Source: Thermoplasmatota archaeon
Lineage (GTDB): Archaea > Thermoplasmatota > Poseidoniia > Poseidoniales > Poseidoniaceae
DNA length: 37,242 nucleotides
Assembly: GCA_036021875.1 (NCBI GenBank)
Contig: JAYXVG010000001.1
Span: 1 to 37,242, forward strand
Direction: 5' to 3'
The notes beneath the pieces were generated by a model that was given only the letters and a program-made list of their open reading frames with translations, ran no database searches and was not told the DNA's origin. Shown here piece by piece: positions 1,178 to 18,765 of the stretch. The stretch's first letter is position 1. Each line of letters begins with the position of its first letter. The position numbers and the translations under genes are program-made.

Positions 1178-1238
1178 GAAATATACTCATTGATAATGTC
1201 TATCAAACCTTTGGCGGCATAGGGTCATTGTATGGCGA

Positions 1239-3341: not shown

Positions 3342-3370
3342 GGTGCGTCACTGTTAAAAGAGGTTCTTGA

Positions 3371-6300
3371 GTGGCCAACCTGCTCCAGCCTTTAGGCTGT
3401 CGCGAAATACCGATGAGGGAAATAAAAATGGAAGAGAAAACATTGACACTGCGAAACTCTCCAGCACCAATGCTAGGATGGCTAATTGCCCCCCTTGCAG
3501 TAATGCTGGCAATCGCTGCAATAATGGTCGCAGGAATTGACTTCGACCTAGAACTGAACAACATGACACCTATGCTAGTAGTTGGCGTTGGTGCAATTTT
3601 GGGTATAACTCCAAGAGTGCTCAAGGAAACCGGTGCAGTAAAACTCTCTTCCTCTGCATTTTCCCTTGCCACACTCGGTGCTGTGCTGATCGGACATCAA
3701 GCAATAATACACCTAACAGACTTTGGCGCCTTTACTGCTTTACAATTCTTAGTAGTTGCTTTTGGGGTGTTTTTCTTTGATTCCCGCGGTCGGCATGAAA
3801 TCGCCACGATACTTACTTTTGCAATGATGGGTATCAATGTCGGAATGGTTGCAGTGGGCCACTATAATGACATTTTAGACCCAAATTACAAAATTGGAGA
3901 TACACTTATCCCGCAAGCGCTTGACTTCCAACGCCAAGCACTGGGTTACGTTTTCTTCAGTTATCTGACGATTTTTATCGGATTGGGTCTACTACTATCT
4001 GTTGCGCTAAGAGGAATAATCAACCCAGAGACAAGTGAAGGATGGTTTGGCAAAATCTCGCCGGTTAATGGGGGCTACAATACCGCCACTTTACCCCTTC
4101 AAATAGCAACTCTGGCTTGGATATTGGCACATGTTGGCAGCCTGTATCATTTTGAATCAGTCTCAATGGCCGACAAACTGGGTATATTCTACGAAGAGGG
4201 ATATCACGGTCACTTTGGATTCTGGGGAGCATTTTTCACCGGTGTCGTAGCGATGATTGTTGCTGGCATGGCATCAGAGCGCTGGTATACTCGCTCGATG
4301 TTTATTGGTTCAATGTGGTTGCTTTACCTCGTATCATCATGGTATGAGTCTGGCATGTGGGAGGCAGAGCAGTTAGAAGGCACCTGGGGTGCTCTGATTT
4401 GGCTCGGATTCACTTTCTTCCTTTGTGTCGGTATTTACATGATATCAACGCATGAAAAGTATGGTGGTTGGTCTAACTTAGACGACCATGAAATAAGCGG
4501 CGCTCGAAAGTTCTGGAATGAACACTGGTCCAGCCTAATGGTGGGTGCTGCTTTCTTTTTCGCATTGGTTATCAGAGTTCAATGGTATATCATACCTTCA
4601 ATGAATGCCTTTGGAACTGGAACTTGGGATATGACAGGCGGATCAGACCCGTGGTACATGAAACGTATCGTAGACTACATTCTAGCAAATAATGCACACT
4701 TGATTTTTGACGCAGATAGGTCCTACCCGCTGGGTGGAGTTAATCCAAGACCGCCGCTATTCACATGGTCGATAGCACTGGTTTCCATGCTTTTGGAACC
4801 GATGCTCGGTGAAGATGCAATTTGGTATGCCATACTGGGCTTACCAGCTATTTTTGGTGCATTGACAGTATTCCCTATCGCAGCGATAGCAAAGGATAAT
4901 TTCGGCAAATCCACTGGTGTGGTGGCTGCTTGGTTGATTGCATTCATGCCAGCGCACGTATCTCACTCCACATGGGCTCTTGCAGACCACGATGCGTTTG
5001 TTATGCTGTTTATTTCAATGGGCTTCATGTTTTGGTTCAAAGCAATCAAACATTCAGGCAATGAGCGGCTAACAAAATCAACGTCGCCAAGAATTTCCTC
5101 GATTTTGCGATCATTTTCAGTTGTTGCTACTGAAAAGCGAGCGGCTATGTCTTATGCTGTGCTTGCAGGTATTTCGTTTGGTGTAACCTCGCTGGCCTGG
5201 AAAGGATTTATTGTTGGTCCGAGCATCTTGTTCTTAGCATATTTCGTTCAGGTCGCGCTCAATATGTTTAGAAGAAAAGATTCTACCACAATCAACGCAT
5301 TGTTCTTGGCCATGCTATTCAGTAATCTGCTTATGGCGCTACCATTTTACGGTCATCCACAATTAGCTTTAGTTCTGGATGGTACTGGCTTGCAACCATT
5401 CTTGTTCGTGCTTGGTTTTACCTTAGCGATATCCTATGTCACAACAGGATTCCGCGACAAACCATGGTTGTTGGTTCTCGGAACACTATTTGCATCTGCT
5501 ATGGTCTTTTTCACCATCTTGTTCGTGCTAAAGCAACTCGAAATTAGCAATGCATGGGATGTTTTGTTTACCGGTAGTGGATATTTCACCAAGACGAAAA
5601 TTTTCGGTACTGTCGCTGAAGCAAATGCACCTGACAGAGGTCAATTATTTGCTCAACTAGGACCAATTGTGTTAGTTTTGGCCCTTACAATGGGATTCTA
5701 TTCAATTTACTCGACCTTCAGGAACAAAAACCAATCACATCTATTCTTTGGTATTTGGATTTTTACCGCAGGCTACATGTCATGGACAGCTGCGAGATTT
5801 ATGTTCAATGCAACCCCTGCAGTTGCGGTTCTCGGTGCGTGGGGAATCGTTGCACTCTGGGACAAAGCAAATTGGCGTGGGCTAGTTCGAACTTGGAAGA
5901 AATTTGGCATTAGGACTCCAGCAGACAGAATTGCTGGCGCAAGAAGAGCAGTTTGGAAGACCCCATCATTTTCTGCTATACTGCTGATTATTCTGCTATT
6001 GGGTGGTCAGCAGTTCACCTATGGTTTAGATTCAGCTATACCAGGAACAGACCGGTCAGAAAATGAGTTGGATGAGGATATCTACAACTTAATCCCAGAC
6101 GCACTAAGGTGGGAGCTCGCAGGTTTCTCAGTTCTAGATAGCAGTGCTTACACAGGAAACTGGTATCTTGGATCTTTCGGCTCTGGATTTAATGACGAAG
6201 GCTGGAATAAAGCATATGATTGGTTGTCTCAACAAGATACTGAAATGCCGTATTCCCAACGTCCTGCCTTTGTATCTTGGTGGGATTATGGTTTCCAAGC

Positions 6301-9300
6301 ACTCGATACTGGAGAACACCCATCAGTTTCAGATAACTTCCAGTCTGGGATTCCAGCAACTGGAAATATGTTGTTGGCAAGATCTCAAACGGATTTAGTC
6401 TCAATGTTCATATGGCAACTTGCCACAGGCGACCTTCGCTACAATCAGATTAACACTGGAGACTACCAGTTGACAAATGGGTTTAGTAACAAAGTGGCAA
6501 ATTCAGGTTTGTCTACAGAGCAAATAGACCTATTCAACACAATTCAAGAGAGTCAAGATTTTGATGAAATGAAGCAACTAATCGATGATTATGCGTTTAC
6601 TGTAATTCAAACAAATGAGGCATCTCAAGTCCAGCAAAATAGCGTTAACATGATGGCCACAGGACATCACAGAGTAAACGGAATCGCTGATACTGATACC
6701 ACATACTACAGGTTGTATCAGGACAGTGAGAGAATTATTTGTGACCCAGAGGTTTCAACATCGTGTGTTGATGGTGACTGGGAAGATTATGAAGAGGCTA
6801 ATCAAACATTCAATAACAACGTCAGATCGGGCCAAGAAACCAATTATGATACAACACACTACATCTTTGGAGACTACTTCTACACTAATGACCTAAGAGA
6901 CGAATTTGATTCTGTTTCAACACACATACACCGCCATAACACAAGGTTAGCAATGACAGTTCAGTTACTAAACGACATAATGACTAGCTCTGAAATAGTA
7001 GACTTTTATGATGACTTAATTGGTATGGAATCATATTACAGTGTTCAAGATTATGATGGTTTGCCAGGTGACATGATATCTAGGGATCACGAAATTCGCT
7101 ATTTCGCCATTGATAACAGGCTTTACCCCAAGGCAGGACGTTATACTGCAGACTATGACTATAACTTCGGTCAGCCTATGGGGATATTCGGGGCTCCAAC
7201 AATTCTCAGCGGTCAAGACATTTCCACATTCATGGGTGAGGTATACGAGACCTCACGTGGTGATAGGAACTTTGAGATGACCAGAGAAGAAGTTGACGAG
7301 TCAATGACCAATGATTTCTTAGATCAGCAAGCCGGTCTTGACATAGACCCACTTCAGGTACAGGACGTAAGAGTAGATCATCATCCTGAATTCTTTGAAA
7401 CCATGTTGGCCAGAACCTATGTTGGATATGGTGCATCATCCCTTGGAATTGATACCGCATTTTCTAATCCACAACCCGCTCAGAGATTTGACCAAGGAGG
7501 TAGTCCAAACTCTATCCTTCAGAATGCACCACCGCTACCAGGGGCAATGATGAATCACTTTGTTATAGCAAACTGGTATGATGAAGACAGCAACAGCACA
7601 TTCGATGCTAATGCTAGGGTTAAGATTGTAAAATACTACTCTGGTGCTGAGGTTACCGGTAGTGTCTCAATGAGCGACAACGGCGAGCCCCTGCCGGGAG
7701 TTCGATTGTTAATTGAGCGAGATGCTTTCTCAGGCGAGGATGAAATCGATACTGACGAATCAACATACTGGATTCCAATTGGATTTACTGACGCTGACGA
7801 AAATGGCGAATGGTCTTTCCTGGCACCTGCAGGTAAAATCAGAGTCTCAGCATTTGTTGGAACCTATGACCCAGAGCCAGCAAGAGCAACATTCAATGAC
7901 GGTAGTTATGCCCAACTTCTCAGCAGTGATTTGACCTCTGAAACAACTGAAGACCGACAAATAAATGCCATCACTGCAATTCTTGGTAATGTAGCAAATA
8001 TGACTTGGTTGGGTGAGACTCACTACAACGTGACAGGTGAACAAGCTAACAGAACCGAAGCATTCACTGAAACAATGGATATCGAAGTTGACAGTAGTGG
8101 AATCTCCGGCCAATTAACATGGGTTGGTGATGATTTATTCAATGGCCAACCAATTGTTGACACAACATTGGTCCTCCGCAACATACACGAAACATCAGAC
8201 AATGTGACACTAGTAACAACCAACGGCTCCTTCAGCACTGATGAAACCAGAATTATACAAGGTACAGGTCAAGCAATCTTTACCGAAAACGGCACTTTTG
8301 AAAGTGAAGGTTTAGCCTCGGTCTTTGACTTCCACGGAACATTCACCAGAACAATTAGCGATGGTAGAACATATGTCGCAAACGGTACTTGGAACGGAAC
8401 AGGGGATATCAAAGCATCATGGATTAACCTATCCAGTGACTTTGACATAGACTGTAATGTTGATGAGAACAATTCAGCAAACATCACCATGCCGGTCAAT
8501 CAAACCATTTGTTTGAAAGATGACACTGGCGACTTACCTGTTTACATGTTGGATGGTGAAATTGTTGCAAATGGAAGATTTACTTCACTTGGTGATACAA
8601 TTCTTGTCCAGGAGCATGACGGTGCATCTTTCGAGGGGATTGGTTTCTATGAAGGGACTGGTACTTTCAATGGCACAGGTCGCTTTGTCGGATCTGGGAC
8701 ATTTTCAGGAGAGATGGTCAATCCTGGGTCATTCTACCAGACAGGCATGGTTCCTGGTGAGTATGAAGCCTATGCTAGATTAGACAATGGTAGAGAAGTC
8801 TTACTTCCAGAAACAGTATCTGTGGGGATAAATAATGAATTTGGCTTGACTCTAAGCATGCCTGGCTCACTAATCATCGGAAACCTGACTAACACAACAG
8901 GCGGCGTATTATCCAACACATCATTCGAAATAATTGATACCCTGACTGAAGATTCGCAGCCGATAACAGTTACCAGTAACGAGACTGGTGGCTACAAATA
9001 CGGCCCTGTTTCATCGGGTGAGTATGAATATAGAATCGACTTAGATTCGGACGGATTCTATGAGGTCTCTGGAGAGCTGTTTGTGGGAGATGAGACTGAG
9101 CTATTGGAACCTCTGGGACTAATTCCCGACATGTATGACATCACAGTTACTCTGGTATCTCCACAAGATGATAACGGTCAAAATCTGGTTGAAACCAATC
9201 TACAAAACTTTACACTAACAAATGAGATTGGCGTCGTTGAAACGTATGAGTCGTCAGCAGAAGGAACAATCAACATGGAATTAAATGTCGGAACCTATAC

Positions 9301-12300
9301 TATCGAGCAGGTTGGTCTTGACGATTATTACCTGTATTCTTCGTTCACTATCTCAGATGAAGATTTGTCAATCGATATTGATTATTCTCCGGCTTCTACA
9401 ATAAGCGGAACGATACTGGCATATACAGTAGAGTTCGATGAGAATTGGACTGCAGATGATATCGCAGCGAACACTACAAATGCACAAAACCTCGATGTTA
9501 ACTTCGTCTCTGGTGATGTTATATTTGCAACTGTTACTGATAGTGAAGGTAACTTCACAATCGTTGTTCCAGGAGACCTAGACTATGTAATGAAGGCGGC
9601 AACAACAGCAAATACCTACGGTGTAGGTTTAGTTGTCGAGCCTAATTCTGCTGCAGATTTCAATCTTGGTGAGGTATATTTACAGCGTTTGTATACCATT
9701 TCAGGAACACTAATACTGACTAACACAAACAGCACATGGAATGGTCTAGATTATCGTGGTGTTTCCCCAACAATAGTTGCTACTGACTCTAATAATGTCG
9801 ATTGGGAAGCCGAAGTAACCAGTTCAGGGACCTTTGTTCTTAACTTGGCAAGTGGTGTGTATGATTTTGCTGCATCAGAATCGGAATACAATATTTCTAG
9901 TCTTGAAGGGAAGGAAATATCTAACACCATCCAAAGTAACACTGTCGAACTAAAATCTACCCTCGAGCCGACATCATTTGATATCTCGGTTTGTTTAGTA
10001 TCAGATAAGAATGGAAACTGCGAAACTGGAATACCAAAATATGCAAATATTGAACTCATTTCAAGTTCAAACAGCAGTGTTGTCTATGAACTAAGTGAAG
10101 CAGACTTTGACGAATTTGGAATGACCAGTGTTGAGGTTCTGCCTGGAGTATACACAATCCAGACCAACTACACTGAAGCTGGCGACCAAAATGCAACAGA
10201 TTTCAACATGTTCTTTACCACGCAAGAGATTTTTGTTAGTATGTTTGAGGAAGATAATGTAGAATTCTTCATCGAACTTAATGATGAAAGATTGTTCAAC
10301 GGTAAATTAACAGCAGGTGCAGATAACTTCTCAAACGTTCAATTCTTGTTGTATAATGAATCAAATAATCAATGGCTATCGGCAGTTACCGATAACTTTG
10401 GTAACTTTAACGAGTATATTCCTTCTGGCGATTGGTTGATAATAGTATCTCCACAAGAGATAGAAAACACAACCTATACTCTTAGACATCCAATCACCAT
10501 TGACGATGATTTGTCTGTCAGAACAGACATTTCACTAGCGCTATTTGAAGCAGTAAATGTCAATATGACCCTCATTGAATCAATGACCGATAATTTTGTT
10601 GACAATGCCCGAGTTATTGCAGTCAGTAATGATGGTTATGGCAATGTCACACTGGGTGCGAGTAACCTCTCTGGTTACGTCTCCGATACAATTATGCCTG
10701 GTAGTTGGACACTTACTCTAACTAAAGAGACAAGTGATAAGAAATGGACTATTCAGCAAGATGATTATGTCTTTGACGCAACTCAAGAAGGTGATGTAAA
10801 TCTTGGTGAAGTAATGATTGATCTTGAAGTTCTTATTGGCGGAAAAATTTTCTGGGACTTTAACGAAAATGGTGTAGTAGATATCACAGAGACAATAGAA
10901 AACGCATCAGTAACAATCTCTTCATCTGATGAAATGACAACCTATGACGTAGCCACTGATGCATTTGGTGTCTGGTCGCAAATGGTACCGATTATGGATA
11001 CATACAATGTTACTGTCGAGAAGTCAGGATACTCTACAGGATATTATCTAACAAACGAAACTGATGGACTGATAATCGAAAGTGACTCCGTAACTGAAGA
11101 TTTGTCGATAGTTGCCGACAATGTGTTAGTTAGCGGAGTTGTAACCTCGGTAATGCAAGACCAAGCAGCAAGCCTTACAGACTCGACGATTACGCTATAT
11201 CCTGAATCAGGCAGGGATACCTCGCCAATCGATGTTGTAGGCACATATTCTAACGGTGAACTTGTCTGGACAGCAAATGTAGAGCCAGGAAACTGGATTG
11301 TAGTTGTTGAGAGCACTATCAAAGATGAAAACACTGGCGGTATATCGATAGGATACATTAATGCTGGAGTCGAAGAAGGTGGAGAACTTGAGATGGTTAT
11401 GTCATCTGGTGGATATTTACACTTAGACACTACATGGCAAGATATAGAATTAAACCAACATCATGCTGGTAGTTCAAGCTCTGGCATTGGTATGTTGACC
11501 GACGATGTCCAAGTAACCATTGATACCGGACTTGATGCCGCTTGGAATTATACTGTTGAAACAGACGGAAGCCTTGAATTATTACTTCCAGTCGGTGATT
11601 TCCAGTTGTCATCAGAATTCACAACGATTCAACATGATAGACTACTTGAAATGGATTACTCAGGTAATTCATTTGGTGTGGTAGAGCAAGGAATAATTGA
11701 CGTCACTATGTCTTATACAAGGGCGCTGAATTCGGCAGCAAGTGTTTCAGTCAACCAATCCTCAATAACCAATGCAACATTAATTGAAACCACTATGTTA
11801 ACGCCAATAATCAATGAGTCAGGCTATGATGTTATCGAATTTGATCTGGATATAGTCTATGAAGGAACTGAAACGAGTGATGTCTTGACTATAGGTGGCT
11901 CAACTTTGAGCTCAGCAGATTCTGAGGATTGGAATGTGGAAGTCTTGGACGGTGAAAACTGGACAAACTCAAGAGAAATTACTCTGGGAATCGGAGAATC
12001 AATCGAAGATGATACCGTATCGAACAGCACCACGGTTAAGATGAGAATCACTTTACCGAATGTCAATTCATCGCTGAGCCTGGACAACGGTCACCTAGTG
12101 AAAGTAGAGGTGTCCAGTGAATCCGGAGTATCAGGTAAAACAGAACTTAGAGTCAAGGTTCCACAATATTACGGAATGGAGATAAGCAATGCTGTGACTG
12201 AAACAGGTGTTTCACCAGGTGGTAGTGGTTCATTTTCATTTACTCTGACAAATACAGGCAATGGTGATGACACTTATAGTATCGAACTTGCAGACAACCT

Positions 12301-12949
12301 ACTTGAAGGGTGGCAGATTACCCCAACAACTAGCACATTGACGATCTCAAAAGATGGTCAGAGAACTCAACAGTTTTCCATATTTGCACCAGAATCATTC
12401 ACTGAAGGTGAAATTCAAGCAACTGTTACTGTTACCAGTGAAGATGGACAAACCTCTGAAACTATTATTGTAGATATTCAATCTGCAAAGATTGCACTCT
12501 CAGTTGACCAGACTCTGTCCCAAGAACTAACCAAGGTCTACGAAAGTCAGCCAGGTCAACTTGTTGTTCCAGTATCAAACACAGGTTACAGAACAGCTAG
12601 CACAGTCCTAGTTTCGGTAAATCTAACCAACGATGCCGGAAATGAAGTCATCCAAATAATTGGTAACCAGACTATTAGCGTTGGAGCGGGACAGACAGTT
12701 AATGCAACATTTGTTCTTGATGAATCAACAAAGAAGTTCAATCGATTTGCAATTACTGTTGATGTTCTTGGCGAGGATGCTTCATCTGTCGATGATACTG
12801 TCGAACCATTTGACTATCAGGAAGAGACCATCCTTGACACATCAGAACCTACATCAGCATGGTTTATGATCGTAATAATCGCTTTAACTATCCTTGTTGG
12901 TTACGGCGGACTCAAGGTTGCCCGCAATAAGGGATCAACGCGATTCTAG
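3371..12949 (+). CDS. aglB: Giant membrane/surface protein: extra polytopic N-module + complete AglB/STT3 oligosaccharyltransferase core + ~2000 aa Ig-like/CarboxypepD_reg-like and CARDB/NEW3-like repeats + C-terminal TM anchor
   Basis: Single open frame of 3192 aa. STT3 motifs in order: GGSDPWYMKR (Asp at 4646-4648), YPLGG..PRPPLF, ALADHDAF, GTVAEAN (TVAE 5609-5620), WWDYG (6278-6292), SVSDNFQSG. Tail repeats include VTGSVSMSDNGEPLPGVRLLIERD, IGGKIFWDFNENGVVDITE, FSFTLTNTGNGDDTYSIEL and VPVSNTGYRTASTVLVSVNLTN. It ends with AWFMIVIIALTILVGYGGLKVARNKGSTRF. The start is uncertain: GTG 3371 (agagg 7 nt upstream), ATG 3413, or ATG 3428 (gaggg 8 nt upstream). Confidence 0.85.
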   Translation: MANLLQPLGCREIPMREIKMEEKTLTLRNSPAPMLGWLIAPLAVMLAIAAIMVAGIDFDLELNNMTPMLVVGVGAILGITPRVLKETGAVKLSSSAFSLATLGAVLIGHQAIIHLTDFGAFTALQFLVVAFGVFFFDSRGRHEIATILTFAMMGINVGMVAVGHYNDILDPNYKIGDTLIPQALDFQRQALGYVFFSYLTIFIGLGLLLSVALRGIINPETSEGWFGKISPVNGGYNTATLPLQIATLAWILAHVGSLYHFESVSMADKLGIFYEEGYHGHFGFWGAFFTGVVAMIVAGMASERWYTRSMFIGSMWLLYLVSSWYESGMWEAEQLEGTWGALIWLGFTFFLCVGIYMISTHEKYGGWSNLDDHEISGARKFWNEHWSSLMVGAAFFFALVIRVQWYIIPSMNAFGTGTWDMTGGSDPWYMKRIVDYILANNAHLIFDADRSYPLGGVNPRPPLFTWSIALVSMLLEPMLGEDAIWYAILGLPAIFGALTVFPIAAIAKDNFGKSTGVVAAWLIAFMPAHVSHSTWALADHDAFVMLFISMGFMFWFKAIKHSGNERLTKSTSPRISSILRSFSVVATEKRAAMSYAVLAGISFGVTSLAWKGFIVGPSILFLAYFVQVALNMFRRKDSTTINALFLAMLFSNLLMALPFYGHPQLALVLDGTGLQPFLFVLGFTLAISYVTTGFRDKPWLLVLGTLFASAMVFFTILFVLKQLEISNAWDVLFTGSGYFTKTKIFGTVAEANAPDRGQLFAQLGPIVLVLALTMGFYSIYSTFRNKNQSHLFFGIWIFTAGYMSWTAARFMFNATPAVAVLGAWGIVALWDKANWRGLVRTWKKFGIRTPADRIAGARRAVWKTPSFSAILLIILLLGGQQFTYGLDSAIPGTDRSENELDEDIYNLIPDALRWELAGFSVLDSSAYTGNWYLGSFGSGFNDEGWNKAYDWLSQQDTEMPYSQRPAFVSWWDYGFQALDTGEHPSVSDNFQSGIPATGNMLLARSQTDLVSMFIWQLATGDLRYNQINTGDYQLTNGFSNKVANSGLSTEQIDLFNTIQESQDFDEMKQLIDDYAFTVIQTNEASQVQQNSVNMMATGHHRVNGIADTDTTYYRLYQDSERIICDPEVSTSCVDGDWEDYEEANQTFNNNVRSGQETNYDTTHYIFGDYFYTNDLRDEFDSVSTHIHRHNTRLAMTVQLLNDIMTSSEIVDFYDDLIGMESYYSVQDYDGLPGDMISRDHEIRYFAIDNRLYPKAGRYTADYDYNFGQPMGIFGAPTILSGQDISTFMGEVYETSRGDRNFEMTREEVDESMTNDFLDQQAGLDIDPLQVQDVRVDHHPEFFETMLARTYVGYGASSLGIDTAFSNPQPAQRFDQGGSPNSILQNAPPLPGAMMNHFVIANWYDEDSNSTFDANARVKIVKYYSGAEVTGSVSMSDNGEPLPGVRLLIERDAFSGEDEIDTDESTYWIPIGFTDADENGEWSFLAPAGKIRVSAFVGTYDPEPARATFNDGSYAQLLSSDLTSETTEDRQINAITAILGNVANMTWLGETHYNVTGEQANRTEAFTETMDIEVDSSGISGQLTWVGDDLFNGQPIVDTTLVLRNIHETSDNVTLVTTNGSFSTDETRIIQGTGQAIFTENGTFESEGLASVFDFHGTFTRTISDGRTYVANGTWNGTGDIKASWINLSSDFDIDCNVDENNSANITMPVNQTICLKDDTGDLPVYMLDGEIVANGRFTSLGDTILVQEHDGASFEGIGFYEGTGTFNGTGRFVGSGTFSGEMVNPGSFYQTGMVPGEYEAYARLDNGREVLLPETVSVGINNEFGLTLSMPGSLIIGNLTNTTGGVLSNTSFEIIDTLTEDSQPITVTSNETGGYKYGPVSSGEYEYRIDLDSDGFYEVSGELFVGDETELLEPLGLIPDMYDITVTLVSPQDDNGQNLVETNLQNFTLTNEIGVVETYESSAEGTINMELNVGTYTIEQVGLDDYYLYSSFTISDEDLSIDIDYSPASTISGTILAYTVEFDENWTADDIAANTTNAQNLDVNFVSGDVIFATVTDSEGNFTIVVPGDLDYVMKAATTANTYGVGLVVEPNSAADFNLGEVYLQRLYTISGTLILTNTNSTWNGLDYRGVSPTIVATDSNNVDWEAEVTSSGTFVLNLASGVYDFAASESEYNISSLEGKEISNTIQSNTVELKSTLEPTSFDISVCLVSDKNGNCETGIPKYANIELISSSNSSVVYELSEADFDEFGMTSVEVLPGVYTIQTNYTEAGDQNATDFNMFFTTQEIFVSMFEEDNVEFFIELNDERLFNGKLTAGADNFSNVQFLLYNESNNQWLSAVTDNFGNFNEYIPSGDWLIIVSPQEIENTTYTLRHPITIDDDLSVRTDISLALFEAVNVNMTLIESMTDNFVDNARVIAVSNDGYGNVTLGASNLSGYVSDTIMPGSWTLTLTKETSDKKWTIQQDDYVFDATQEGDVNLGEVMIDLEVLIGGKIFWDFNENGVVDITETIENASVTISSSDEMTTYDVATDAFGVWSQMVPIMDTYNVTVEKSGYSTGYYLTNETDGLIIESDSVTEDLSIVADNVLVSGVVTSVMQDQAASLTDSTITLYPESGRDTSPIDVVGTYSNGELVWTANVEPGNWIVVVESTIKDENTGGISIGYINAGVEEGGELEMVMSSGGYLHLDTTWQDIELNQHHAGSSSSGIGMLTDDVQVTIDTGLDAAWNYTVETDGSLELLLPVGDFQLSSEFTTIQHDRLLEMDYSGNSFGVVEQGIIDVTMSYTRALNSAASVSVNQSSITNATLIETTMLTPIINESGYDVIEFDLDIVYEGTETSDVLTIGGSTLSSADSEDWNVEVLDGENWTNSREITLGIGESIEDDTVSNSTTVKMRITLPNVNSSLSLDNGHLVKVEVSSESGVSGKTELRVKVPQYYGMEISNAVTETGVSPGGSGSFSFTLTNTGNGDDTYSIELADNLLEGWQITPTTSTLTISKDGQRTQQFSIFAPESFTEGEIQATVTVTSEDGQTSETIIVDIQSAKIALSVDQTLSQELTKVYESQPGQLVVPVSNTGYRTASTVLVSVNLTNDAGNEVIQIIGNQTISVGAGQTVNATFVLDESTKKFNRFAITVDVLGEDASSVDDTVEPFDYQEETILDTSEPTSAWFMIVIIALTILVGYGGLKVARNKGSTRF

Positions 12950-12995: not shown

Positions 12996-14210
12996 ATGGG
13001 TAGTCTAGATACTGTAGAATTACTTCCTGAGCCTGATGATGACAGAATACTGTCAGCCATAGACCCATCAGCTGTAGGGTTTCAAGACGACTGGCGTGCA
13101 GAAGTAACCGGATGGGCGCCAGCAATACCAACTCCAATAAAGCGCGTCAGAGGTAGGCGATTCATCGTTACAAATGGCATTTTGTTTGCTATTCTGGCAG
13201 TACTCTTACTATGGGTCTGGCAATCTGGTTACTTGTTGGTGGATTTGCCACCACCAAAGTCTGAGTGGGCCGCAAAACAGGCAGGATTTACCGATGAATC
13301 ACTAGGTGGACTAACTGGTGACGGTGTTAGAGTTTGTATAGTTGATACTGGAATGGATTTATCTAACCCTGCTTTTAACGGGGTTGAAATTGTGTTCAAA
13401 GATATGATCGGTAACTCGGCTACGCCAGTTGATTATGGATTTTTGGCGCATGGAACACTAATGGCTGGATTATTAGTCGCTCAATCACATCAGATTGGTA
13501 TGGCTCCGAATATAGAACTTGGAATGGTTGCAGCATTGGGAGACGATGGCACTGGAAAGAATACCGCTGATGAAAGCGACGTAGCGCAAGCTATTGACTG
13601 GTGTATCGATATGTTCAGTGCCGACATTATTTCTCTATCACTGGGCGGCTCACAAAGCGAGGGGATGACTCGAGAGGGACCGTCTGTATCTGTAACTAGA
13701 AAGGCTGTGGACATGGGGATTTATGTCGTAGCAGCTGCAGGTAACGATGGTGGCACTGGTGATGATGGCAAGGTATCAGTACCTAGTAATGTAGCTAGGG
13801 CTATTTCGGTGGGTGCATCAAAACAAGGTGGTCAAGTTTGGGAGAATAGTTCAATGGGTTCTCAAGTTTTGTCGAATGGTGAACAGAGAAGCGACCCTAA
13901 CTTAAAACCAGAAATAATTGCACCTGGTGAGTTCATTATCAGCACCGGAAGGGGGGATACCTGGTACTCCAGTAGCGGAACTTCGGATGCTACCGTGTTT
14001 GTAACTGCCGCTTTGGCCCTAATTTTGGAAGACCAACCAAATCTAAAACCCAACACCAATTCTGATGGTTCTTGCATTGACACAGTAAAGGAGGCTCTGC
14101 GATTAAGCACTACTAATGGTGGCGAAAACCACGATAATTCGGCTGGCTATGGAGAACTCCATGCAGGAAACTGGTTGGAAGCGGTTAGAAATTTACCAGA
14201 ATGCCAGTGA
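12996..14210 (+). CDS. Membrane-anchored subtilisin-like serine protease (peptidase S8)
   Basis: Catalytic triad in subtilase order and context: VCIVDTGMD (Asp 13344-13346), LAHGTLMAG (His 13449-13451), SSSGTSDATV (Ser 13983-13985). One N-terminal hydrophobic helix (FIVTNGILFAILAVLLLWVW) acts as a signal-anchor. Start moved to ATG 12996 (M35 of the track ORF). Confidence 0.85.
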   Translation: MGSLDTVELLPEPDDDRILSAIDPSAVGFQDDWRAEVTGWAPAIPTPIKRVRGRRFIVTNGILFAILAVLLLWVWQSGYLLVDLPPPKSEWAAKQAGFTDESLGGLTGDGVRVCIVDTGMDLSNPAFNGVEIVFKDMIGNSATPVDYGFLAHGTLMAGLLVAQSHQIGMAPNIELGMVAALGDDGTGKNTADESDVAQAIDWCIDMFSADIISLSLGGSQSEGMTREGPSVSVTRKAVDMGIYVVAAAGNDGGTGDDGKVSVPSNVARAISVGASKQGGQVWENSSMGSQVLSNGEQRSDPNLKPEIIAPGEFIISTGRGDTWYSSSGTSDATVFVTAALALILEDQPNLKPNTNSDGSCIDTVKEALRLSTTNGGENHDNSAGYGELHAGNWLEAVRNLPECQ

Positions 14211-14218
14211 AGTGTTAG

Positions 14219-14225
14219 TTTTTTT
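14219..14225 (+). terminator. Oligo-T tract (7 T), candidate archaeal intrinsic terminator after the subtilase gene
   Basis: ttttttt begins 9 nt after the TGA at 14208-14210, at the start of the only sizeable AT-rich spacer in the block (14211-14343). Confidence 0.35.
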
Positions 14226-14259
14226 AATTTCATTAGCAACTTTTCTTAATGATACTATT

Positions 14260-14310
14260 AATTTATTTTGATATTATTAAAAAAAGCAATGTTACCGCAG
14301 TATTATATTC
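14260..14310 (+). promoter_or_regulatory. AT-rich spacer with TATA-like elements, candidate promoter of the beta-helix/STAND gene pair
   Basis: atttattttgatattattaaaaaaagc ... tattatatt; several TATA-like octamers 30-80 nt upstream of ATG 14344. I cannot tell which one is used. Confidence 0.3.
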
Positions 14311-14332
14311 TTGCATTGGATAGCCTATGTTA

Positions 14333-14338
14333 GAGGAG
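14333..14338 (+). promoter_or_regulatory. Shine-Dalgarno (GAGGAG) for the beta-helix surface protein
   Basis: gaggag lies 5 nt upstream of ATG 14344, supporting that start rather than the TTG at 14311. Confidence 0.45.
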
Positions 14339-14343
14339 TGATT

Positions 14344-17300
14344 ATGTCTTCTAATCTAAAGAAAAAAAGCGTATCAATGATAGTCTTGATGTTCATGTCT
14401 GTCATGTTATCAATGATTACCGTGCCCGCAGTATCTGCCGCTGGTATTAATCAGACTACAGAAGGATTACTCAACGGACAAGAGACATGGACGGGTACCC
14501 ACACTCTTACTGGGAATGTAACCGTTGCTCCTGGTGCAACTCTAGTAGTAAACGCTGGTTCAACAATCAACATACCATACGGTAAGCACATCGATGTCAG
14601 GGGAGCTATATGTGTTGGTTCTAGGGCATGCGGCGCACCATCAGATGGTTCACCAAGTGATGCAGTCAGTTTCACATGGAGCCTTCCCTCAGAGTCAGAG
14701 TATCTAGCGAGGGGGCCTTGCTACGGAAGCATAGATGCTGCTTGTGGATCAGGGATGATTATCCGAAATACGATAGATGAAGCAAAAACAGGTCTTAATT
14801 TTGTCAATTTTGAAAATGCCTTTGGCTACGAATACATCTACTTTGTAGGTGGCAATCCAAATGCAAAATACGCTGCATTAATTTTCGATGGTCCAAGAAC
14901 AACTGCTAATGGCCTGACTTTTACCAATACAAACACTTCAAATGTTTTCTTGACCAATTTGGCAAACCCAACAATCTCAGATTCAACATTTAGTCTGGGT
15001 GTAGATGCATATTCTTTGGGCATGCGAAGTGCAATTGATGCCCTCGGAGCGGGTGCTGGTATTTCAGACCCAGTGATTATTTCTGGTTCTTCATTCACTG
15101 GTGACTCTGAGGGCTCATGCGGTAATAGTGGCTCGGGAATACAGATGATTTATGCTGATAATTCATACATTGCTATTGACGATATCTCCATAAATGACAA
15201 TGGTTATGGAGTATTTTTCAAACAATCCTCAGGCTCAATTACAAATTCTGTTATCGACATCAATTGTAACGCTGTTAATACCAATGGTTTCAAGCAAACT
15301 GGTAGTATAAAGCACACTTTGGTAATTGACGACAATACTTTGACAACCTCTGAAGGGGCAGGTATAACTGCTTACGATCAAGCAAGAATTTCAGCATCAA
15401 GAAATACAATTTCTGGTGCAGAGCAAGGTTCGGGAATCGCTATACGTTCCTCTACTGCGGATTTGTACGACAACAACATAGGTCCAATTCAAGGATATAA
15501 TGGGTTGTGGATTTATGGCACGTCAGAGGTTAGAGCAATCGGCAATCGAATTACTAATACTGGAGCAGAGGCCGTAGTTCACGGCGAGTACCATTACCGT
15601 GACAGTGGATGGCCGAGCATTCAACCCTCAGAATCTAGGCTCTACTTAGAAAATAACGTGATAGAAAACAACTCCGGTATCTGCAATTCTGAGAATACTT
15701 ATGGGGGCGATGACTTCCAGTGTCCAGCAATTCATATCTTCCGTGCTTCAGCAACAATATACAACAACGTAGTAAAAGGAAACCTCGGAGATGCTCTCAG
15801 AATCAAGGGCGGTATAGTTAACGTTCAAAATAACGATATGCAAACGGAAAGTTTTGCCGTGAATATATCACATCATGACACAAACTATGGCGAAAAATTC
15901 GGCTCAATCGGATACTTCTCGGGTAACACATTTACCGGTGCACTACAAGTATACAACATTACAGAGTCTATGGTAACCATTCAATCTGAGAATATTCCAG
16001 CACCCGGGGGCAATGAACTCTACCCAATCAACTTACAATGGTTAGGTGCAGAATGCCCTGATGTTCAAAATGAATGTCTAAAATTACCCAATACAGCAAA
16101 TATGCCACCAGAAGGTATGCCTATGGCCTTGGAATTGGTTAACAACTCTACAGTTCTATCATATGCCGGTTTGCAAAATTTTGATGTCTCAAAAATACAC
16201 GTCAAAAACCAACAATCTGCATGGGGTAATCAAGTTAGAGAAGGCGAGTTGGTTAAATTCAGAGTCAAAGCCTCAAATGTTGATGTAGAGGGTGCCACTG
16301 TAATTATCAAGGACGCTATTGGTACACCTTTGTACACATTGACTACTAATGCACAAGGCTACACTGACGAGGTCACCCTAGCCAGTAATTTCTACCTAGA
16401 TCGAAATCTGAACCATGCTGTTGGGGAAAGTAATGTCCAGGTTCAACTAGCTAATGCATCTGGTGGCCCACCCATTATCAGGACATTAGACGAGAATACC
16501 TGCTCAGATGGTTACGATAATGATGGTGATACACTCACAGATGATGCTGACGACGACTGTATCGGTGGCAGAGAAATACCTCAATATAAAGTTGAGGCGT
16601 TTAAATTTGGTAAGGGAGTTCTAGAATACGATTTCGTATTAACAGGTCCAGTTGATGATATCATATCATTACAAAATATGGCGCCTAGTGTGACAGTTGA
16701 GCAACCGGAGCTTACTTCATTTGCCCGCGTTGTTTCCCTCTCAGGAACTGCTTGGGACGGGGAAGCACCACCATATGCAAGTGACGTAATCGCTCAGCAG
16801 AAACAATTTGGCTATGTTGAAGCGGTTCAAGTACAACCACCGGGTTCAGATCTTTGGTTGAATGCAATAGATACATCCAACTCCGGCGGAGAGATTACTC
16901 AAGCAAGTTATCCATTCAGCACTTGGGCATTTGAATATGATATGTCTGAATACGCTGATGGAGAGGGAGATGTTACTTTCAGAGTCCGTTCCTTTGATGG
17001 ATTGGAATATTCACCAATTACAGTTAAAAAATACAAACTAAATTTACAGGCTCCGTCGATAGTAGTCAATACCCCAGCCCAAAATTCCCAACATGATCCA
17101 AACTCTCCCAAAGGCTCAGTGGTATCTTTCAGCGGAACGGCCAGCGACCCATACTTTGGAGTTAATGGAAATGACATCAAGGAAATATGGTTCGAAATAA
17201 CCGAAGATTCCAATCCCCAATTCACCTCCAAATTTGCGCTTACAGCTTCACCTGGTGAGACATTGTCTGCCTGGCAATATGACTGGGATTATCGGACATA

Positions 17301-18753: not shown

Positions 18754-18756
18754 TTT

Positions 18757-18761
18757 GGTGA
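18757..18761 (+). promoter_or_regulatory. Shine-Dalgarno (GGTGA) for the STAND regulator, inside the 12-nt spacer after the beta-helix gene
   Basis: tga tttGGTGAtaag ATG. The 12-nt intergenic distance implies co-transcription and coupled translation. Confidence 0.45.
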
Positions 18762-18765
18762 TAAG

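What the first reader, a model, noticed from the sequence alone, without database searches (positions are those of the whole stretch)
3371..12949. AglB/STT3 oligosaccharyltransferase fused in one 3192-aa ORF to a ~2000-aa S-layer/adhesin-like repeat tail
One uninterrupted frame (GTG 3371 to TAG 12947-12949) contains every catalytic hallmark of STT3/AglB in the correct order. These are the EL1 acidic motif SDPWYMKR, the second acidic motif ADHDAF, the EL5 TIXE-type TVAE, then WWDYG followed by SVSDNFQSG. The frame then continues with no stop and no TM through serial prealbumin-like (CarboxypepD_reg/Cna-B-like) units and two CARDB/NEW3-like units. It ends in a single C-terminal TM helix with a basic tail. 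Characterised archaeal AglBs are roughly 0.6-1.1 k aa, to my knowledge, and are not fused to surface-repeat arrays. The topology is coherent: the AglB C-terminal domain is extracytoplasmic, so the extension is too, and the final helix returns a KVARNKGSTRF tail to the cytoplasm. The protein would therefore be anchored at both ends. The N-glycosylation enzyme is thus physically part of a giant envelope protein, an architecture I do not recognise as described.
Basis: partly seen in the sequence, partly recalled or inferred. Interest (0 to 1): 0.82.

Follow-up and report, generated by a model that had tools for sequence, protein, structure and literature searches.

The report
Giant double-anchored archaeal oligosaccharyltransferase (AglB)
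In marine group II archaea, the enzyme that attaches sugars to surface proteins is made as one conserved 3,173-residue protein that also carries an extra membrane module and a huge, sugar-site-rich outer tail anchored in the membrane, a form apparently undescribed in the literature I could search.

Summary
One frame (3371..12949, real start most likely ATG 3428, giving 3,173 aa) encodes a complete STT3/AglB core. Every catalytic motif is invariant in 40 of 40 relatives. After the core comes about 1,740 aa of all-beta, acidic, sequon-rich sequence with no TM helix, then one conserved C-terminal TM helix.

It is not an artefact. More than 115 protein clusters of 3,100-3,230 aa (46-80% identity) align almost without gaps. 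Independent Poseidoniales MAGs keep the ORF intact in the same gene order. Codon-position conservation shows purifying selection along the whole gene.

- An unclassifiable 370-aa, roughly 10-TM N-terminal module precedes the STT3 domain.
- The tail is a fixed series of diverged beta-sandwich domains, not a repeat array.
- The CARDB match is below threshold and NEW3 found nothing.
- The architecture is not a one-off. More than 85 further clusters of 2,000-2,775-aa STT3 proteins from Thermoplasmatota MAGs share the plan of STT3, giant tail and C-terminal anchor.

The best reading is an active oligosaccharyltransferase that is also a giant, doubly anchored surface glycoprotein. The tail's role is inferred, not shown. 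Ten literature searches found no description. I rate it a new variant of a known kind, with interest about 0.6.

The parts
3345..3427 (+). Conserved 5' leader or promoter region of the giant gene. It holds a TATA-like TTAAAAGAGG (3354-3363), hairpin 1 (3369-3385), hairpin 2 CAGCC-TTTA-GGCTG (3386-3399) and a Shine-Dalgarno-like GAGGGAAA (3415-3422).
   Evidence: The nucleotides are conserved across loci whose proteins are only 46-60% identical. RNAalifold predicts 9 pairs, 2 of them with compensatory changes. The motif occurs exactly once per locus in 25 loci and once in the window. There is no Rfam match.
3428..12949 (+). Revised coding sequence of the giant AglB: 3173 aa plus a TAG stop.
   Evidence: Relatives align from the equivalent MEEK-type methionine, and the closest ones are 3172-3173 aa long.
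3428..4537 (+). N-terminal extension, aa 20-389. It is a polytopic module of about 10 TM helices with conserved polar motifs (DSRGRHE, HF.SVSMADKLG, YHGHFGFW, ERWYTRSM). It belongs to no known family and is found only in the ~3,190-aa Poseidoniales-type proteins.
   Evidence: Hydropathy. Ten helices in the DSSP of the low-confidence AF2 model. No Pfam, PDB or distant homologues. Not a duplicate of the STT3 TM domain. Absent from the 2,000-2,775-aa relatives.
4538..6028 (+). STT3/AglB transmembrane (GT-C) domain, aa 390-886.
   Evidence: PF02516 at 63.1 bits. TIGR04154 alignment. Alignment to A. fulgidus AglB-L 3WAJ. Hydropathy.
4643..4666 (+). First acidic motif in external loop 1, SDPWYMKR with D426. 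HMMER aligns it with GGNDPWYYYR of AfAglB-L.
   Evidence: Invariant in 40/40 relatives. Alignment.
4982..4999 (+). Second acidic motif, ADHDAF with D539 and D541. HMMER aligns it with NDHH of AfAglB-L.
5609..5620 (+). TIXE-type motif TVAE (E750) in the position of external loop 5.
   Evidence: T747 and E750 are invariant in 40/40 relatives; V748 and A749 in 39/40.
6029..7630 (+). Extracytoplasmic AglB domain, aa 887-1420, mixed alpha/beta. It contains WWDYG and the conserved block HP[ST]V[AS]DNFQ.G. Residues 1200-1420 are as conserved as the catalytic core.
6278..6292 (+). WWDYG motif, aa 970-974.
   Evidence: Invariant in 40/40 close relatives and in all 135 aligned representatives that were selected for carrying an exact WWDYG. 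Among complete 2,000-2,775-aa relatives, every row printed shows WWDYG.
7631..12856 (+). Extracellular tail, aa 1421-3162. It is all-beta and acidic (D+E 15-17%, K+R 3-4%), has no TM helix, and carries 46 N-x-S/T sequons.
10889..11047 (+). Best prealbumin-like unit (CarboxypepD_reg, PF13620), aa 2507-2559. Weaker units lie near aa 1428-1502, 1837-1900 and 1946-1997.
   Evidence: 43.7 bits against a cutoff of 32.3. Weaker units. An iterated profile finds 6-7 units.
9071..12070 (+). Fastest-evolving part of the tail, aa 1901-2900. This is the proposed distal, most exposed part of the loop.
   Evidence: Amino-acid identity to relatives is 0.26-0.48 here, against 0.57-0.75 for aa 1201-1800 (0.46 for 1801-1900) and 0.44-0.51 for the C-terminal end. 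The region still aligns almost without gaps, and codon identity runs pos2 > pos1 > pos3.
12128..12736 (+). Membrane-proximal Ig-like units. Sub-threshold choice-of-anchor T NF041740 at aa 2920-3032 and CARDB. FixG_C at aa 2955-3028 and PLipase_C_C at aa 3057-3122 reach the Pfam cutoffs only when the C-terminal piece is scanned alone.
   Evidence: This part is shared with the C-terminal ends of the 2,000-2,775-aa relatives.
12857..12946 (+). C-terminal TM anchor (aa 3163-3181) and basic cytoplasmic tail. The conserved signature is ..L.LV.YGG[VL]K.AR....[KR]F-COOH. There is no PGF motif.
12996..14210 (+). Conserved downstream neighbour: an S8 subtilase of about 404 aa with an N-terminal TM anchor (its aa 56-74).
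14344..18753 (+). Conserved neighbour: a right-handed beta-helix surface protein of about 1,470 aa with a signal peptide and a TM helix near the C-terminus (ORF aa 1374).
18766..21288 (+). Conserved neighbour: an 840-aa protein with HTH, AAA_16 (STAND-type) ATPase and TPR regions.

Best explanation
This is a real single gene of Candidatus Poseidoniales (marine group II archaea). It encodes a catalytically competent N-oligosaccharyltransferase (AglB/STT3, GT-C fold) built into a giant membrane protein of about 24 TM helices.

Order of parts:
- a lineage-specific N-terminal module of about 10 TM helices, function unknown;
- the STT3 membrane domain with its metal- and acceptor-binding acidic residues;
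- the extracytoplasmic WWDYG domain;
- a tail of about 1,740 aa made of many diverged prealbumin/Ig-like beta-sandwich domains, acidic and enriched in N-glycosylation sequons;
- a conserved C-terminal TM helix that returns a short basic tail to the cytoplasm.

Proposed mechanism. The core transfers a lipid-linked glycan to Asn-x-Ser/Thr as in other AglBs (inferred from motif conservation). The tail forms a loop outside the cell with both feet in the membrane. Its conserved ends sit near the membrane and the enzyme, and its fast-evolving middle faces the environment. The tail is itself N-glycosylated, so the enzyme doubles as a major component of the glycoprotein coat, or as a spacer, on these cells (inferred).

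What is shown: the gene's integrity, its conservation, the STT3 identity, the motif invariance, the topology signals, the sequon enrichment and the phyletic spread. What is inferred: activity, glycosylation of the tail, and the coat or spacer role.
For: Gene integrity and conservation
- The ORF and its translation are as described.
- 117 of the best 120 clusters are 3,109-3,227 aa long, with 46-80% identity and 97-100% coverage.
- The 40-sequence alignment is almost gapless across all 3,192 columns.
- The ORF is intact, and the gene order CarS, purD, giant AglB, S8, beta-helix is kept, in 7 Poseidoniales MAG loci and in 5 loci at 46-59% identity.
- Codon identity runs pos2 > pos1 >> pos3 in every segment.
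- There are no DNA tandem repeats.

STT3 identity
- Pfam STT3 passes its cutoff. TIGR04154 aligns over aa 390-1009. PDB 3WAJ AglB-L aligns across the acidic motifs and WWDYG.
- D426, D539, D541, E750 and WWDYG are invariant in 40/40 relatives.

Topology
- About 10 TM helices lie before the STT3 domain, STT3 TM helices run to aa 886, none occur up to 3163, and one lies at 3163-3181.
- The C-terminal anchor signature is conserved.

Tail
- It is beta-rich from about aa 1426 onward.
- It carries CarboxypepD_reg, SpaA, NOMO-like and Ig-like matches.
- It has 46 sequons against 24.9 +/- 4.4 expected (z 4.8). Relatives have 33-58, and several sequons are invariant. The enzyme's own domain (aa 971-1400) has only one.
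- The middle of the tail evolves fastest.

Spread
- The same plan of STT3, giant tail and C-terminal TM anchor occurs in 85 of 87 complete representatives of 2,000-2,775 aa. The named members of the 20 clusters checked are Thermoplasmata or Thermoplasmatota MAGs.
- These share homology in aa 1240-1400 and in the C-terminal Ig-like part.
Against: - No direct evidence for activity, for glycosylation of the tail, or for its location.
- Both AlphaFold models were low-confidence (pLDDT 43.5 and 45.0), so domain boundaries and the fold of the N-terminal module are not established.
- The DK/MI Ser/Thr-pocket motif could not be located.
- The TIGR04154 score is far below its cutoff (163.6 against 450), so the protein is a distant AglB.
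- I could not check whether the same genomes also carry a conventional, short AglB. If they do, the giant one could be specialised or even non-catalytic.
- A membrane-anchored subtilase is always encoded next door, which leaves room for proteolytic separation of enzyme and tail.
- The tail matches no characterised S-layer protein by sequence.
Confidence: 0.78

Rival explanations
1. Polyprotein or precursor. The gene is translated as one chain, but the neighbouring membrane-anchored S8 subtilase (or another protease) cuts it near aa 1420. This releases a conventional ~1,000-aa AglB (plus the N-terminal module) and a separate, C-terminally anchored surface glycoprotein. The fusion would serve only to co-produce and co-localise enzyme and substrate.
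For: An S8 subtilase with an N-terminal TM anchor lies immediately downstream in every Poseidoniales-type locus examined, down to 46% identity. One distant Thermoplasmata locus also has an S8 neighbour. The AglB part up to about aa 1420 has the size of known long AglBs. The tail has its own membrane anchor.
Against: No cleavage motif or variable linker is visible at the junction. Residues 1201-1500 are among the best conserved and have no gaps. S8 adjacency is not general among the 2,000-2,775-aa relatives. No experimental data exist either way.
Confidence: 0.15
2. Built-in accessory subunits. The tail acts mainly as a substrate-recruiting, chaperone or spacing platform for the catalytic site, like the lumenal beta-sandwich domains of the non-catalytic subunits of the eukaryotic OST complex. 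On this reading it is not a structural coat protein.
For: The segments flanking the enzyme (aa 1201-1900) and next to the second anchor (aa 2901-3192) are well conserved. Weak matches to NOMO1- and EMC7-type beta-sandwiches of ER membrane complexes appear in this protein and its relatives. Other GT-C enzymes carry large non-catalytic soluble domains (general knowledge).
Against: About 1,740 aa, strong acidity, sequon enrichment and a rapidly evolving middle look more like an environment-exposed surface protein than a chaperone. No homology to ribophorin, OST1, WBP1 or SWP1 was detected.
Confidence: 0.12
3. Pseudo-enzyme. The STT3 part is a catalytically dead membrane anchor for an adhesin, and a separate short AglB carries out N-glycosylation.
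For: I could not scan whole genomes for a second STT3 gene. The TIGR04154 score is below its cutoff. The DK/MI motif was not found.
Against: All catalytic residues and WWDYG are invariant across 40 relatives, and WWDYG is kept in the distant 2,000-2,775-aa relatives. The STT3 core is the most conserved part of the protein, at 0.69-0.81 identity. Dead enzymes normally lose these residues.
Confidence: 0.04
4. Assembly or frameshift artefact joining two genes.
For: Three assemblies call the gene in pieces.
Against: Those three are pilon-polished contigs or have purD broken too, and the breaks fall at different, arbitrary places: 365+895+1908 aa, 256+2203+546+162 aa, and 2829+298 aa. More than 115 clusters and at least 12 independent loci have the intact ORF of the same length. 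Coding constraint is continuous across the junction.
Confidence: 0.01

Closest known systems
Archaeoglobus fulgidus AglB-L (PDB 3WAJ/5GMY, 868 aa) and the other structurally characterised 'long' AglBs
   Same: It has the same GT-C STT3 core. HMMER aligns GGSDPWY with GGNDPWY, ADHD with NDHH, and the WWDYG...NPFQAGI block. It also has a TIXE-type motif and an extracytoplasmic C-terminal domain of several hundred residues. That domain is built in units (CC, IS, P1, P2) in the solved AglBs (PMC3703281).
   Different: Characterised AglBs are 591-868 aa in A. fulgidus (PMC3703281) and about 1,000 aa at most elsewhere (my recollection). This protein is 3,173 aa. It adds about 370 aa and 10 TM helices at the N-terminus, and about 1,740 aa plus a second membrane anchor at the C-terminus. 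Sequence similarity is low (E 6.6e-9).
TIGR04154 archaeo_STT3 (AglB associated with the archaeosortase A system)
   Same: It is the best NCBIfam match, covering model positions 3-576 of 831. Some of the distant 2,000-2,775-aa relatives end in PGF-like motifs.
   Different: The score of 163.6 is far below the cutoff of 450. This protein's C-terminus has no PGF motif.
Unnamed 2,000-2,775-aa STT3 proteins of Thermoplasmata/Thermoplasmatota MAGs, annotated 'carboxypeptidase regulatory-like domain-containing protein', 'Stt3' or 'GT39'
   Same: They share the overall plan: STT3, then WWDYG, then a TM-free beta-sandwich tail, then a single C-terminal TM helix with a basic tail. This holds in 85 of 87 complete representatives. 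They also share homology in aa 1240-1400 and in the C-terminal Ig-like part. They are 28-37% identical in the STT3 part.
   Different: They lack the N-terminal 10-TM module. Their tails are shorter and mostly not alignable with this one. Their gene neighbourhoods differ.
Eukaryotic OST complex (STT3 plus non-catalytic subunits with lumenal domains)
   Same: A catalytic STT3 is combined with large non-catalytic extracytoplasmic modules and extra TM helices. Here all of this lies on one chain. This is an analogy, not homology.
   Different: No sequence relationship to ribophorins, OST1, WBP1 or SWP1 was detected. The tail is far larger, acidic and sequon-rich.
Archaeal surface (S-layer-type) glycoproteins anchored by a C-terminal TM helix or PGF-CTERM, and bacterial tandem Ig or prealbumin adhesins and pilins
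   Same: The composition, beta-sandwich content, sequon richness and C-terminal anchor are alike. Foldseek on the low-confidence model lists tandem-Ig adhesins, pilins and Sulfolobus SlaB (TM-scores at or below 0.1, so this is weak).
   Different: No sequence homology to any solved surface protein. The domains are not repeats. No known S-layer protein is covalently part of the oligosaccharyltransferase.

Membership tests
STT3/AglB/PglB oligosaccharyltransferase (CAZy GT66, Pfam PF02516) | Significant match to the STT3 profile above the curated threshold | tested here: met
   PF02516 at 63.1 bits against a cutoff of 24.5, aa 414-819. PDB AglB-L at E 6.6e-9.
STT3/AglB/PglB oligosaccharyltransferase (CAZy GT66, Pfam PF02516) | First acidic (DXD-type) motif in external loop 1 | tested here: met
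   GGSD426PWY aligns with GGND47PWY of AfAglB-L. Invariant in 40/40 relatives.
STT3/AglB/PglB oligosaccharyltransferase (CAZy GT66, Pfam PF02516) | Second acidic motif (DXD / DXH) | tested here: met
   LAD539HD541 aligns with NDHH of AfAglB-L. Invariant.
STT3/AglB/PglB oligosaccharyltransferase (CAZy GT66, Pfam PF02516) | TIXE/SVSE motif in external loop 5 | tested here: met
   T747-V-A-E750. T and E are invariant in 40/40 relatives.
STT3/AglB/PglB oligosaccharyltransferase (CAZy GT66, Pfam PF02516) | WWDYG motif in the extracytoplasmic domain | tested here: met
   aa 970-974, invariant in 40/40 relatives. It is also present in every 2,000-2,775-aa relative printed. The 135 sequences aligned were selected for carrying it.
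STT3/AglB/PglB oligosaccharyltransferase (CAZy GT66, Pfam PF02516) | DK or MI motif forming the Ser/Thr pocket | tested here: inconclusive
   No conserved DxxKxxx(M/I) or MxxIxxx(I/V/W) lies within 170 aa after WWDYG in 135 sequences. The literature says divergent variants cannot be found without a structure (PMC3703281).
STT3/AglB/PglB oligosaccharyltransferase (CAZy GT66, Pfam PF02516) | 13-TM GT-C fold | tested here: inconclusive
   Hydropathy gives about 12-13 TM segments between aa 390 and 886. The AF2 model has pLDDT 43.5. Foldseek's top hits are yeast and human STT3, but at E 0.04-0.14.
STT3/AglB/PglB oligosaccharyltransferase (CAZy GT66, Pfam PF02516) | Transfer of lipid-linked glycan to Asn-x-Ser/Thr | not testable with these tools
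   Needs biochemistry or complementation.
TIGR04154 archaeo_STT3 (archaeosortase A-associated AglB) | Score at or above the curated cutoff | tested here: not met
   163.6 bits against a cutoff of 450.
PGF-CTERM / archaeosortase A substrates | PGF tripeptide before the C-terminal hydrophobic helix and basic tail | tested here: not met
   The C-terminus reads ...SEPTSAWFMIVIIALTILVGYGGLKVARNKGSTRF, with no PGF here or in 39 relatives. A few of the 2,000-2,775-aa relatives do have PGF-like motifs.
CarboxypepD_reg (PF13620) prealbumin-like domain proteins | Match above the Pfam gathering score | tested here: met
   43.7 bits against 32.3, aa 2507-2559. Further units are below threshold. An iterated profile finds 6-7 units.
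CARDB (PF07705) / NEW3 | Match above the Pfam gathering score | tested here: not met
   CARDB at E 0.19 and 12.4 bits against 22.7. NEW3 is not listed at all. Related Ig-like models reach their cutoffs only when the C-terminal piece is scanned alone: FixG_C at 25.6 bits (cutoff 25.6) and PLipase_C_C at 26.4 bits (cutoff 24.4).
Choice-of-anchor T (NF041740) | Score at or above the curated cutoff | tested here: not met
   47.7 bits against a cutoff of 70, aa 2920-3032.
Archaeal S-layer protein | Forms the regular outermost lattice and is an abundant glycoprotein | not testable with these tools
   No sequence relative among solved structures. Needs cryo-ET or proteomics.

The most novel reading that the evidence does not exclude
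The giant AglB may be a self-contained glycosylation-and-envelope machine. On this reading the tail is the main surface coat, the equivalent of an S-layer or glycocalyx, in marine group II and many other Thermoplasmatota. It would be glycosylated in cis or in trans by its own enzyme domain. The orphan 10-TM N-terminal module would supply the missing membrane step of the pathway, for example flipping or recycling of the lipid-linked glycan, a step whose archaeal catalyst is, to my knowledge, still not firmly identified.
Probability: 0.1. Interest if true: 0.88.

Novelty: new variant of a known kind. Interest (0 to 1): 0.62.

Why it matters
AglB is the signature enzyme of archaeal N-glycosylation. 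As characterised so far, it is a stand-alone protein of about 600-1,000 aa. Here the only AglB-like gene I could see is a conserved 3,173-aa protein with about 24 TM helices whose larger part is a sequon-rich extracellular tail with its own anchor. It belongs to one of the most abundant archaeal groups of the surface ocean. A related, shorter giant form is spread across Thermoplasmatota.

If the tail is a coat or spacer component, enzyme and envelope are physically one molecule. That would change how envelope biogenesis is pictured in these mostly uncultured archaea, some of which lack a cell wall. It would also identify a very large, abundant, fast-evolving surface antigen relevant to virus-host interactions in the ocean. 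It further offers natural fusions for asking what non-catalytic modules do for an OST, and an orphan polytopic module whose fusion partner hints at a role in the glycosylation pathway.

In practice, database annotations of these genes ('carboxypeptidase regulatory-like domain-containing protein', 'GT39', 'hypothetical protein') hide the fact that they are the OST.

Tried and rejected
- **AlphaFold2.** I modelled aa 20-1010 and aa 890-2080 using 10- and 8-sequence alignments. Only exact substrings of proteins already on record were accepted as input. Both models were poor (pLDDT 43.5 and 45.0). I used only their secondary structure, and gave their Foldseek results little weight.
- **PDB profile searches.** Profiles of the N-terminal module, of aa 1000-1420 and of two tail segments found nothing.
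- **Internal duplication.** I tested whether the N-terminal module duplicates the STT3 TM domain with hhalign. Probability was 0.2%, so I rejected this.
- **Stand-alone homologues of the N-terminal module.** A single sequence and a profile found only fragments of the same family. Pfam at E up to 10 found nothing consistent.
- **Split genes.** I followed up three apparent split versions and rejected them as indel artefacts in pilon-polished (apparently long-read) assemblies.
- **Repeats.** I looked for tandem or dispersed repeats in the tail and found none.
- **Other giant ORFs.** I looked for similarity between the tail and the other giant ORFs of the window and found none.
- **DK/MI motif.** I could not locate it.
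- **Rfam.** No match to the conserved leader.
- **Literature.** Ten searches found no paper describing a giant or fused AglB. The key phylogenetic survey, Nikolayev et al. 2020, is not held.
- **Not possible.** I did not establish whether any cultured species carries the architecture.

Full report
**1. What is in the sequence**

The window holds one open frame from GTG 3371 to TAG 12947-12949, 3192 codons. I number residues from that GTG.

- Pfam finds STT3 (PF02516) at aa 414-819, with 63.1 bits against a cutoff of 24.5. It also finds one CarboxypepD_reg unit above threshold at aa 2507-2559.
- NCBIfam's archaeal STT3 model TIGR04154 aligns to aa 390-1009, but at 163.6 bits it is well below its cutoff of 450.
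- The best solved relative is Archaeoglobus fulgidus AglB-L (3WAJ, E 6.6e-9). HMMER pairs GGSDPWYMKR with GGNDPWYYYR, LADHDAF with FNDHHIW, and the WWDYG...DNFQSGI block with WWDYG...NPFQAGI.

A Kyte-Doolittle scan shows four zones:
- about ten hydrophobic helices between aa 38 and 358;
- the STT3 helices from aa 390 to 886;
- nothing TM-like from aa 886 to 3163;
- one helix at aa 3163-3181, followed by KVARNKGSTRF.

The neighbours are archaeal: CDP-archaeol synthase, purD, archaeal pilin-like proteins.

**2. Is it real?**

Yes.
- A search of 5.8 billion proteins returned 353 relatives. Of the best 120 clusters, 117 are 3,109-3,227 aa long and cover 97-100% of the query at 46-80% identity.
- A 40-sequence alignment is practically gapless over the whole length.
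- In seven independent Poseidoniales MAG contigs the ORF is uninterrupted (3,191-3,212 codons). It sits in the same order: CarS(-), purD, giant gene, S8 subtilase, beta-helix protein.
- Five further loci, at only 46-59% identity, keep the gene, the S8 gene and a large downstream ORF that is the beta-helix protein wherever Pfam hits are on record. purD is seen upstream in four of them, and the STAND/TPR gene follows in the two loci long enough to show it.
- Between the window and four relatives, nucleotide identity runs codon position 2 > 1 >> 3 in every one of seven segments, including all of the tail.
- There are no tandem repeats that could cause mis-assembly.

Three assemblies call the gene in pieces. 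Two are pilon-polished contigs, and in the third purD is broken too. The breaks differ (365+895+1908 aa; 256+2203+546+162 aa; 2829+298 aa) and none coincides with the enzyme/tail boundary. I read these as indel errors, not natural splits.

**3.

(a) Start codon.
- The relatives align from the equivalent of M20 (MEEKT...), which is invariant in the alignment, and most called relatives begin there.
- The 100 nt before it are conserved at the nucleotide level even between loci whose proteins are about 50% identical.
- This leader contains a TATA-like TTAAAAGAGG (3354-3363), two small hairpins (3369-3385 and 3386-3399, the second with compensatory changes) and GAGGGAAA (3415-3422) just before ATG 3428.
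- GTG 3371 lies inside hairpin 1.
- The mature product is therefore most likely 3,173 aa, which matches the 3,172-3,173 aa of the closest relatives.

(b) N-terminal module.
- A 370-aa module of about 10 TM helices (aa 20-389) precedes the STT3 domain.
- It has conserved polar motifs but no Pfam, PDB or distant homologues.
- It is not a duplicate of the STT3 membrane domain.
- Because STT3's first helix starts in the cytoplasm, an even number of extra helices keeps the N-terminus cytoplasmic. That fits the basic N-terminal peptide.

(c) The tail is not a repeat array.
- BLAST finds no self-similarity.
- Only an iterated profile recognises 6-7 prealbumin-like units.
- The order and length of the domains are fixed across the family.

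(d) Domain labels.
- CARDB is far below threshold and NEW3 is absent.
- The membrane-proximal end does contain Ig-like units. FixG_C and PLipase_C_C reach their Pfam cutoffs only when the C-terminal piece is scanned alone, and choice-of-anchor T stays below its cutoff.

(e) Where the enzyme ends.
- The canonical AglB part probably runs to about aa 1420. The segment from 887 to 1420 is mixed alpha/beta.
- Its last 200 residues are as conserved as the catalytic core and are shared with distant relatives.
- The true tail is therefore about 1,740 aa.

**4. Properties of the tail**

- It is strongly acidic: D+E 15-17% against K+R 3-4%.
- It is predicted all-beta from about aa 1426 (low-confidence model).
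- It carries 46 N-x-S/T sequons where 24.9 +/- 4.4 are expected from its composition (z 4.8). Relatives have 33-58. Sequons at N1553, N1671, N1710 and N2425 are kept in all 39 relatives, and those at N1543 and N1767 in 38. The enzyme's own extracytoplasmic domain (aa 971-1400) has a single sequon.
- Conservation is uneven. Identity is 0.57-0.75 for aa 1201-1800, falls to 0.46 for aa 1801-1900 and 0.26-0.48 for aa 1901-2900, and is 0.44-0.51 for the last 300 residues.
- The C-terminal anchor has its own signature: a hydrophobic helix ending YGG[VL]K.AR....[KR]F-COOH, without a PGF motif.
- The other giant ORFs in the window lack this signature and share no similarity with the tail.

**5. Wider distribution**

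An exhaustive HMMER search of 1.84 billion representatives with aa 378-1500 gave 881 hits, 267 of them at E <= 1e-30. They fall into two groups.
- The Poseidoniales-type proteins are about 3,150-3,230 aa, with STT3 starting at about aa 333-400.
- The next 130 or so clusters are 28-37% identical in the STT3 part. Those that are complete are nearly all 2,000-2,775 aa, with STT3 at the very N-terminus.

Of the 87 complete ones, 85 have WWDYG at about 570-820, almost never a TM helix afterwards, and a single C-terminal TM helix plus an Arg/Lys-rich end. A few have PGF-like motifs. The shorter entries end abruptly inside beta-rich sequence and look truncated.

Where sources name them, they come from 'Thermoplasmata archaeon' or 'Candidatus Thermoplasmatota archaeon' MAGs. 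They are annotated as 'carboxypeptidase regulatory-like domain-containing protein', 'Stt3' or 'GT39'. They share the aa 1240-1400 segment and the C-terminal Ig-like part with this protein, but not the N-terminal module.

So the plan of STT3, giant tail and second anchor is old and widespread in this phylum. The Poseidoniales version is its largest elaboration. Neighbourhoods of three distant members vary:
- one has an S8 protease and a NosD/beta-helix neighbour;
- one sits beside 8,356-aa and 1,077-aa surface proteins;
- two are followed by an overlapping ~260-aa ORF.

**6. How it most likely works**

Shown:
- one gene, under purifying selection throughout;
- an STT3 core whose catalytic residues are invariant;
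- topology signals that place the whole stretch from aa 887 to 3162 outside the cell and the last 11 residues inside.

Inferred:
- The core is an active AglB that transfers a dolichol-linked glycan to Asn-x-Ser/Thr.
- The tail is a loop with both feet in the membrane. Its conserved ends lie next to the enzyme and the membrane, and its variable middle is the distal, exposed part.
- The tail is heavily N-glycosylated, possibly by its own or a neighbouring copy's active site.
- It contributes to the glycoprotein coat or sets the spacing of the envelope.

I give 0.78 to the combined statement 'real, active AglB that is also a doubly anchored surface glycoprotein'. I give less than even odds to any specific role for the tail.

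Rivals:
- processing into two proteins by the ever-present membrane-anchored S8 subtilase next door, 0.15;
- an accessory-subunit-like role in recruiting substrates, 0.12;
- a dead enzyme, 0.04;
- an artefact, 0.01.

The function of the N-terminal module is unknown. Its fusion to the OST hints at a step of the same pathway, but nothing tested here supports a particular one.

**7. Comparison with what is known**

By sequence and motifs the core is a member of the STT3/AglB/PglB family. It is not a member of TIGR04154 by that model's cutoff, and it is not a PGF-CTERM protein. The DK/MI pocket motif could not be found. The structural literature expects this for divergent AglBs when no 3D structure is available (PMC3703281).

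Characterised AglBs are 591-868 aa in A. fulgidus. Their C-terminal domains are built from units of modest size. Nothing comparable to a 1,740-aa tail with a second anchor, or to a 10-TM N-terminal extension, turned up in ten full-text searches. One MGII metatranscriptome paper merely lists an 'oligosaccharyltransferase' among differentially transcribed genes (PMC9723583). The 2020 phylogenetic survey of AglB is not in the library, so I cannot exclude a passing mention there.

**8. Verdict**

Novelty: a new variant of a known kind. It is a known enzyme family in an undescribed, conserved and ecologically widespread giant architecture. Interest 0.62. A specialist would be surprised by the size, the second anchor, the extra membrane module and the phylum-wide spread. 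But the function of the added parts is still inference, the sequences are already in public databases, and structure prediction failed here.

Noticed in passing
window 3345-3427: A ~80-100-nt leader upstream of the giant gene is conserved at the nucleotide level even where the proteins are about 50% identical. It has a TATA-like box, two small hairpins (the second with compensatory changes) and a GAGGG Shine-Dalgarno-like box. The core motif occurs exactly once per locus in 25 related loci. There is no Rfam family. It may be a gene-specific regulatory leader.
   Followed up: partly
window 12996-21288: A conserved cluster lies downstream of the giant AglB. It comprises a membrane-anchored S8 subtilase (~404 aa), a ~1,470-aa right-handed beta-helix protein with a signal peptide and a C-terminal TM helix, and an 840-aa HTH/STAND-ATPase/TPR protein. 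The order is kept down to 46% identity of the AglB (L020, L021). The S8 and beta-helix proteins are more conserved than the AglB itself.
   Followed up: partly
window 9071-12070 (aa 1901-2900): The middle of the tail evolves two to three times faster than either end, yet stays gapless and coding. This is the pattern expected for the exposed apex of a surface loop, possibly under pressure from viruses or grazers.
   Followed up: partly
window 26113-31857: A 1,914-aa ORF with a signal peptide is very acidic (D+E 19%) and has 28 sequons but no Pfam match at all. It is another large, uncharacterised putative surface glycoprotein.
   Followed up: no
window 21758-25059 (minus strand): Two adjacent ORFs (741 and 359 aa) have archaeal type IV pilin-like N-termini (sub-threshold matches to DUF7289 and Pilin_N). 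They lie between the STAND/TPR gene and a metallo-beta-lactamase-fold gene.
   Followed up: no
L028 10001-19560; L029 5238-14760; L030 6001-15401: In two pilon-polished contigs (L029, L030) and one 696-kb JGI contig (L028), the giant gene is called as two to four pieces broken at arbitrary points. In L028 purD is broken as well. Gene catalogues built from such assemblies will undercount and mis-annotate this protein.
   Followed up: yes
P0152, P0155, P0157, P0161, P0187, P0198 (C-termini): Some of the 2,000-2,775-aa Thermoplasmatota giant STT3 proteins end in a PGF-like motif before the hydrophobic helix. This suggests that in those lineages the tail's anchor is processed by an archaeosortase, as in haloarchaeal S-layer glycoproteins.
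   Followed up: no
L025 14501-15289; L027 14330-15100: In two distant Thermoplasmata loci, a ~260-aa ORF overlaps the stop codon of the giant STT3 gene. One has a weak CARDB hit. It may be a co-translated partner.
   Followed up: no
window 35177-36232: A family 2 glycosyltransferase with C-terminal TM helices lies about 22 kb downstream. It could belong to the glycan assembly pathway but is not clustered with the AglB.
   Followed up: no
window 1-1238 (minus strand): A partial ORF of at least 395 codons runs off the left end of the window. In related loci this position holds a 550-600-aa protein that carries CARDB hits in several of them, upstream of CarS.
   Followed up: no
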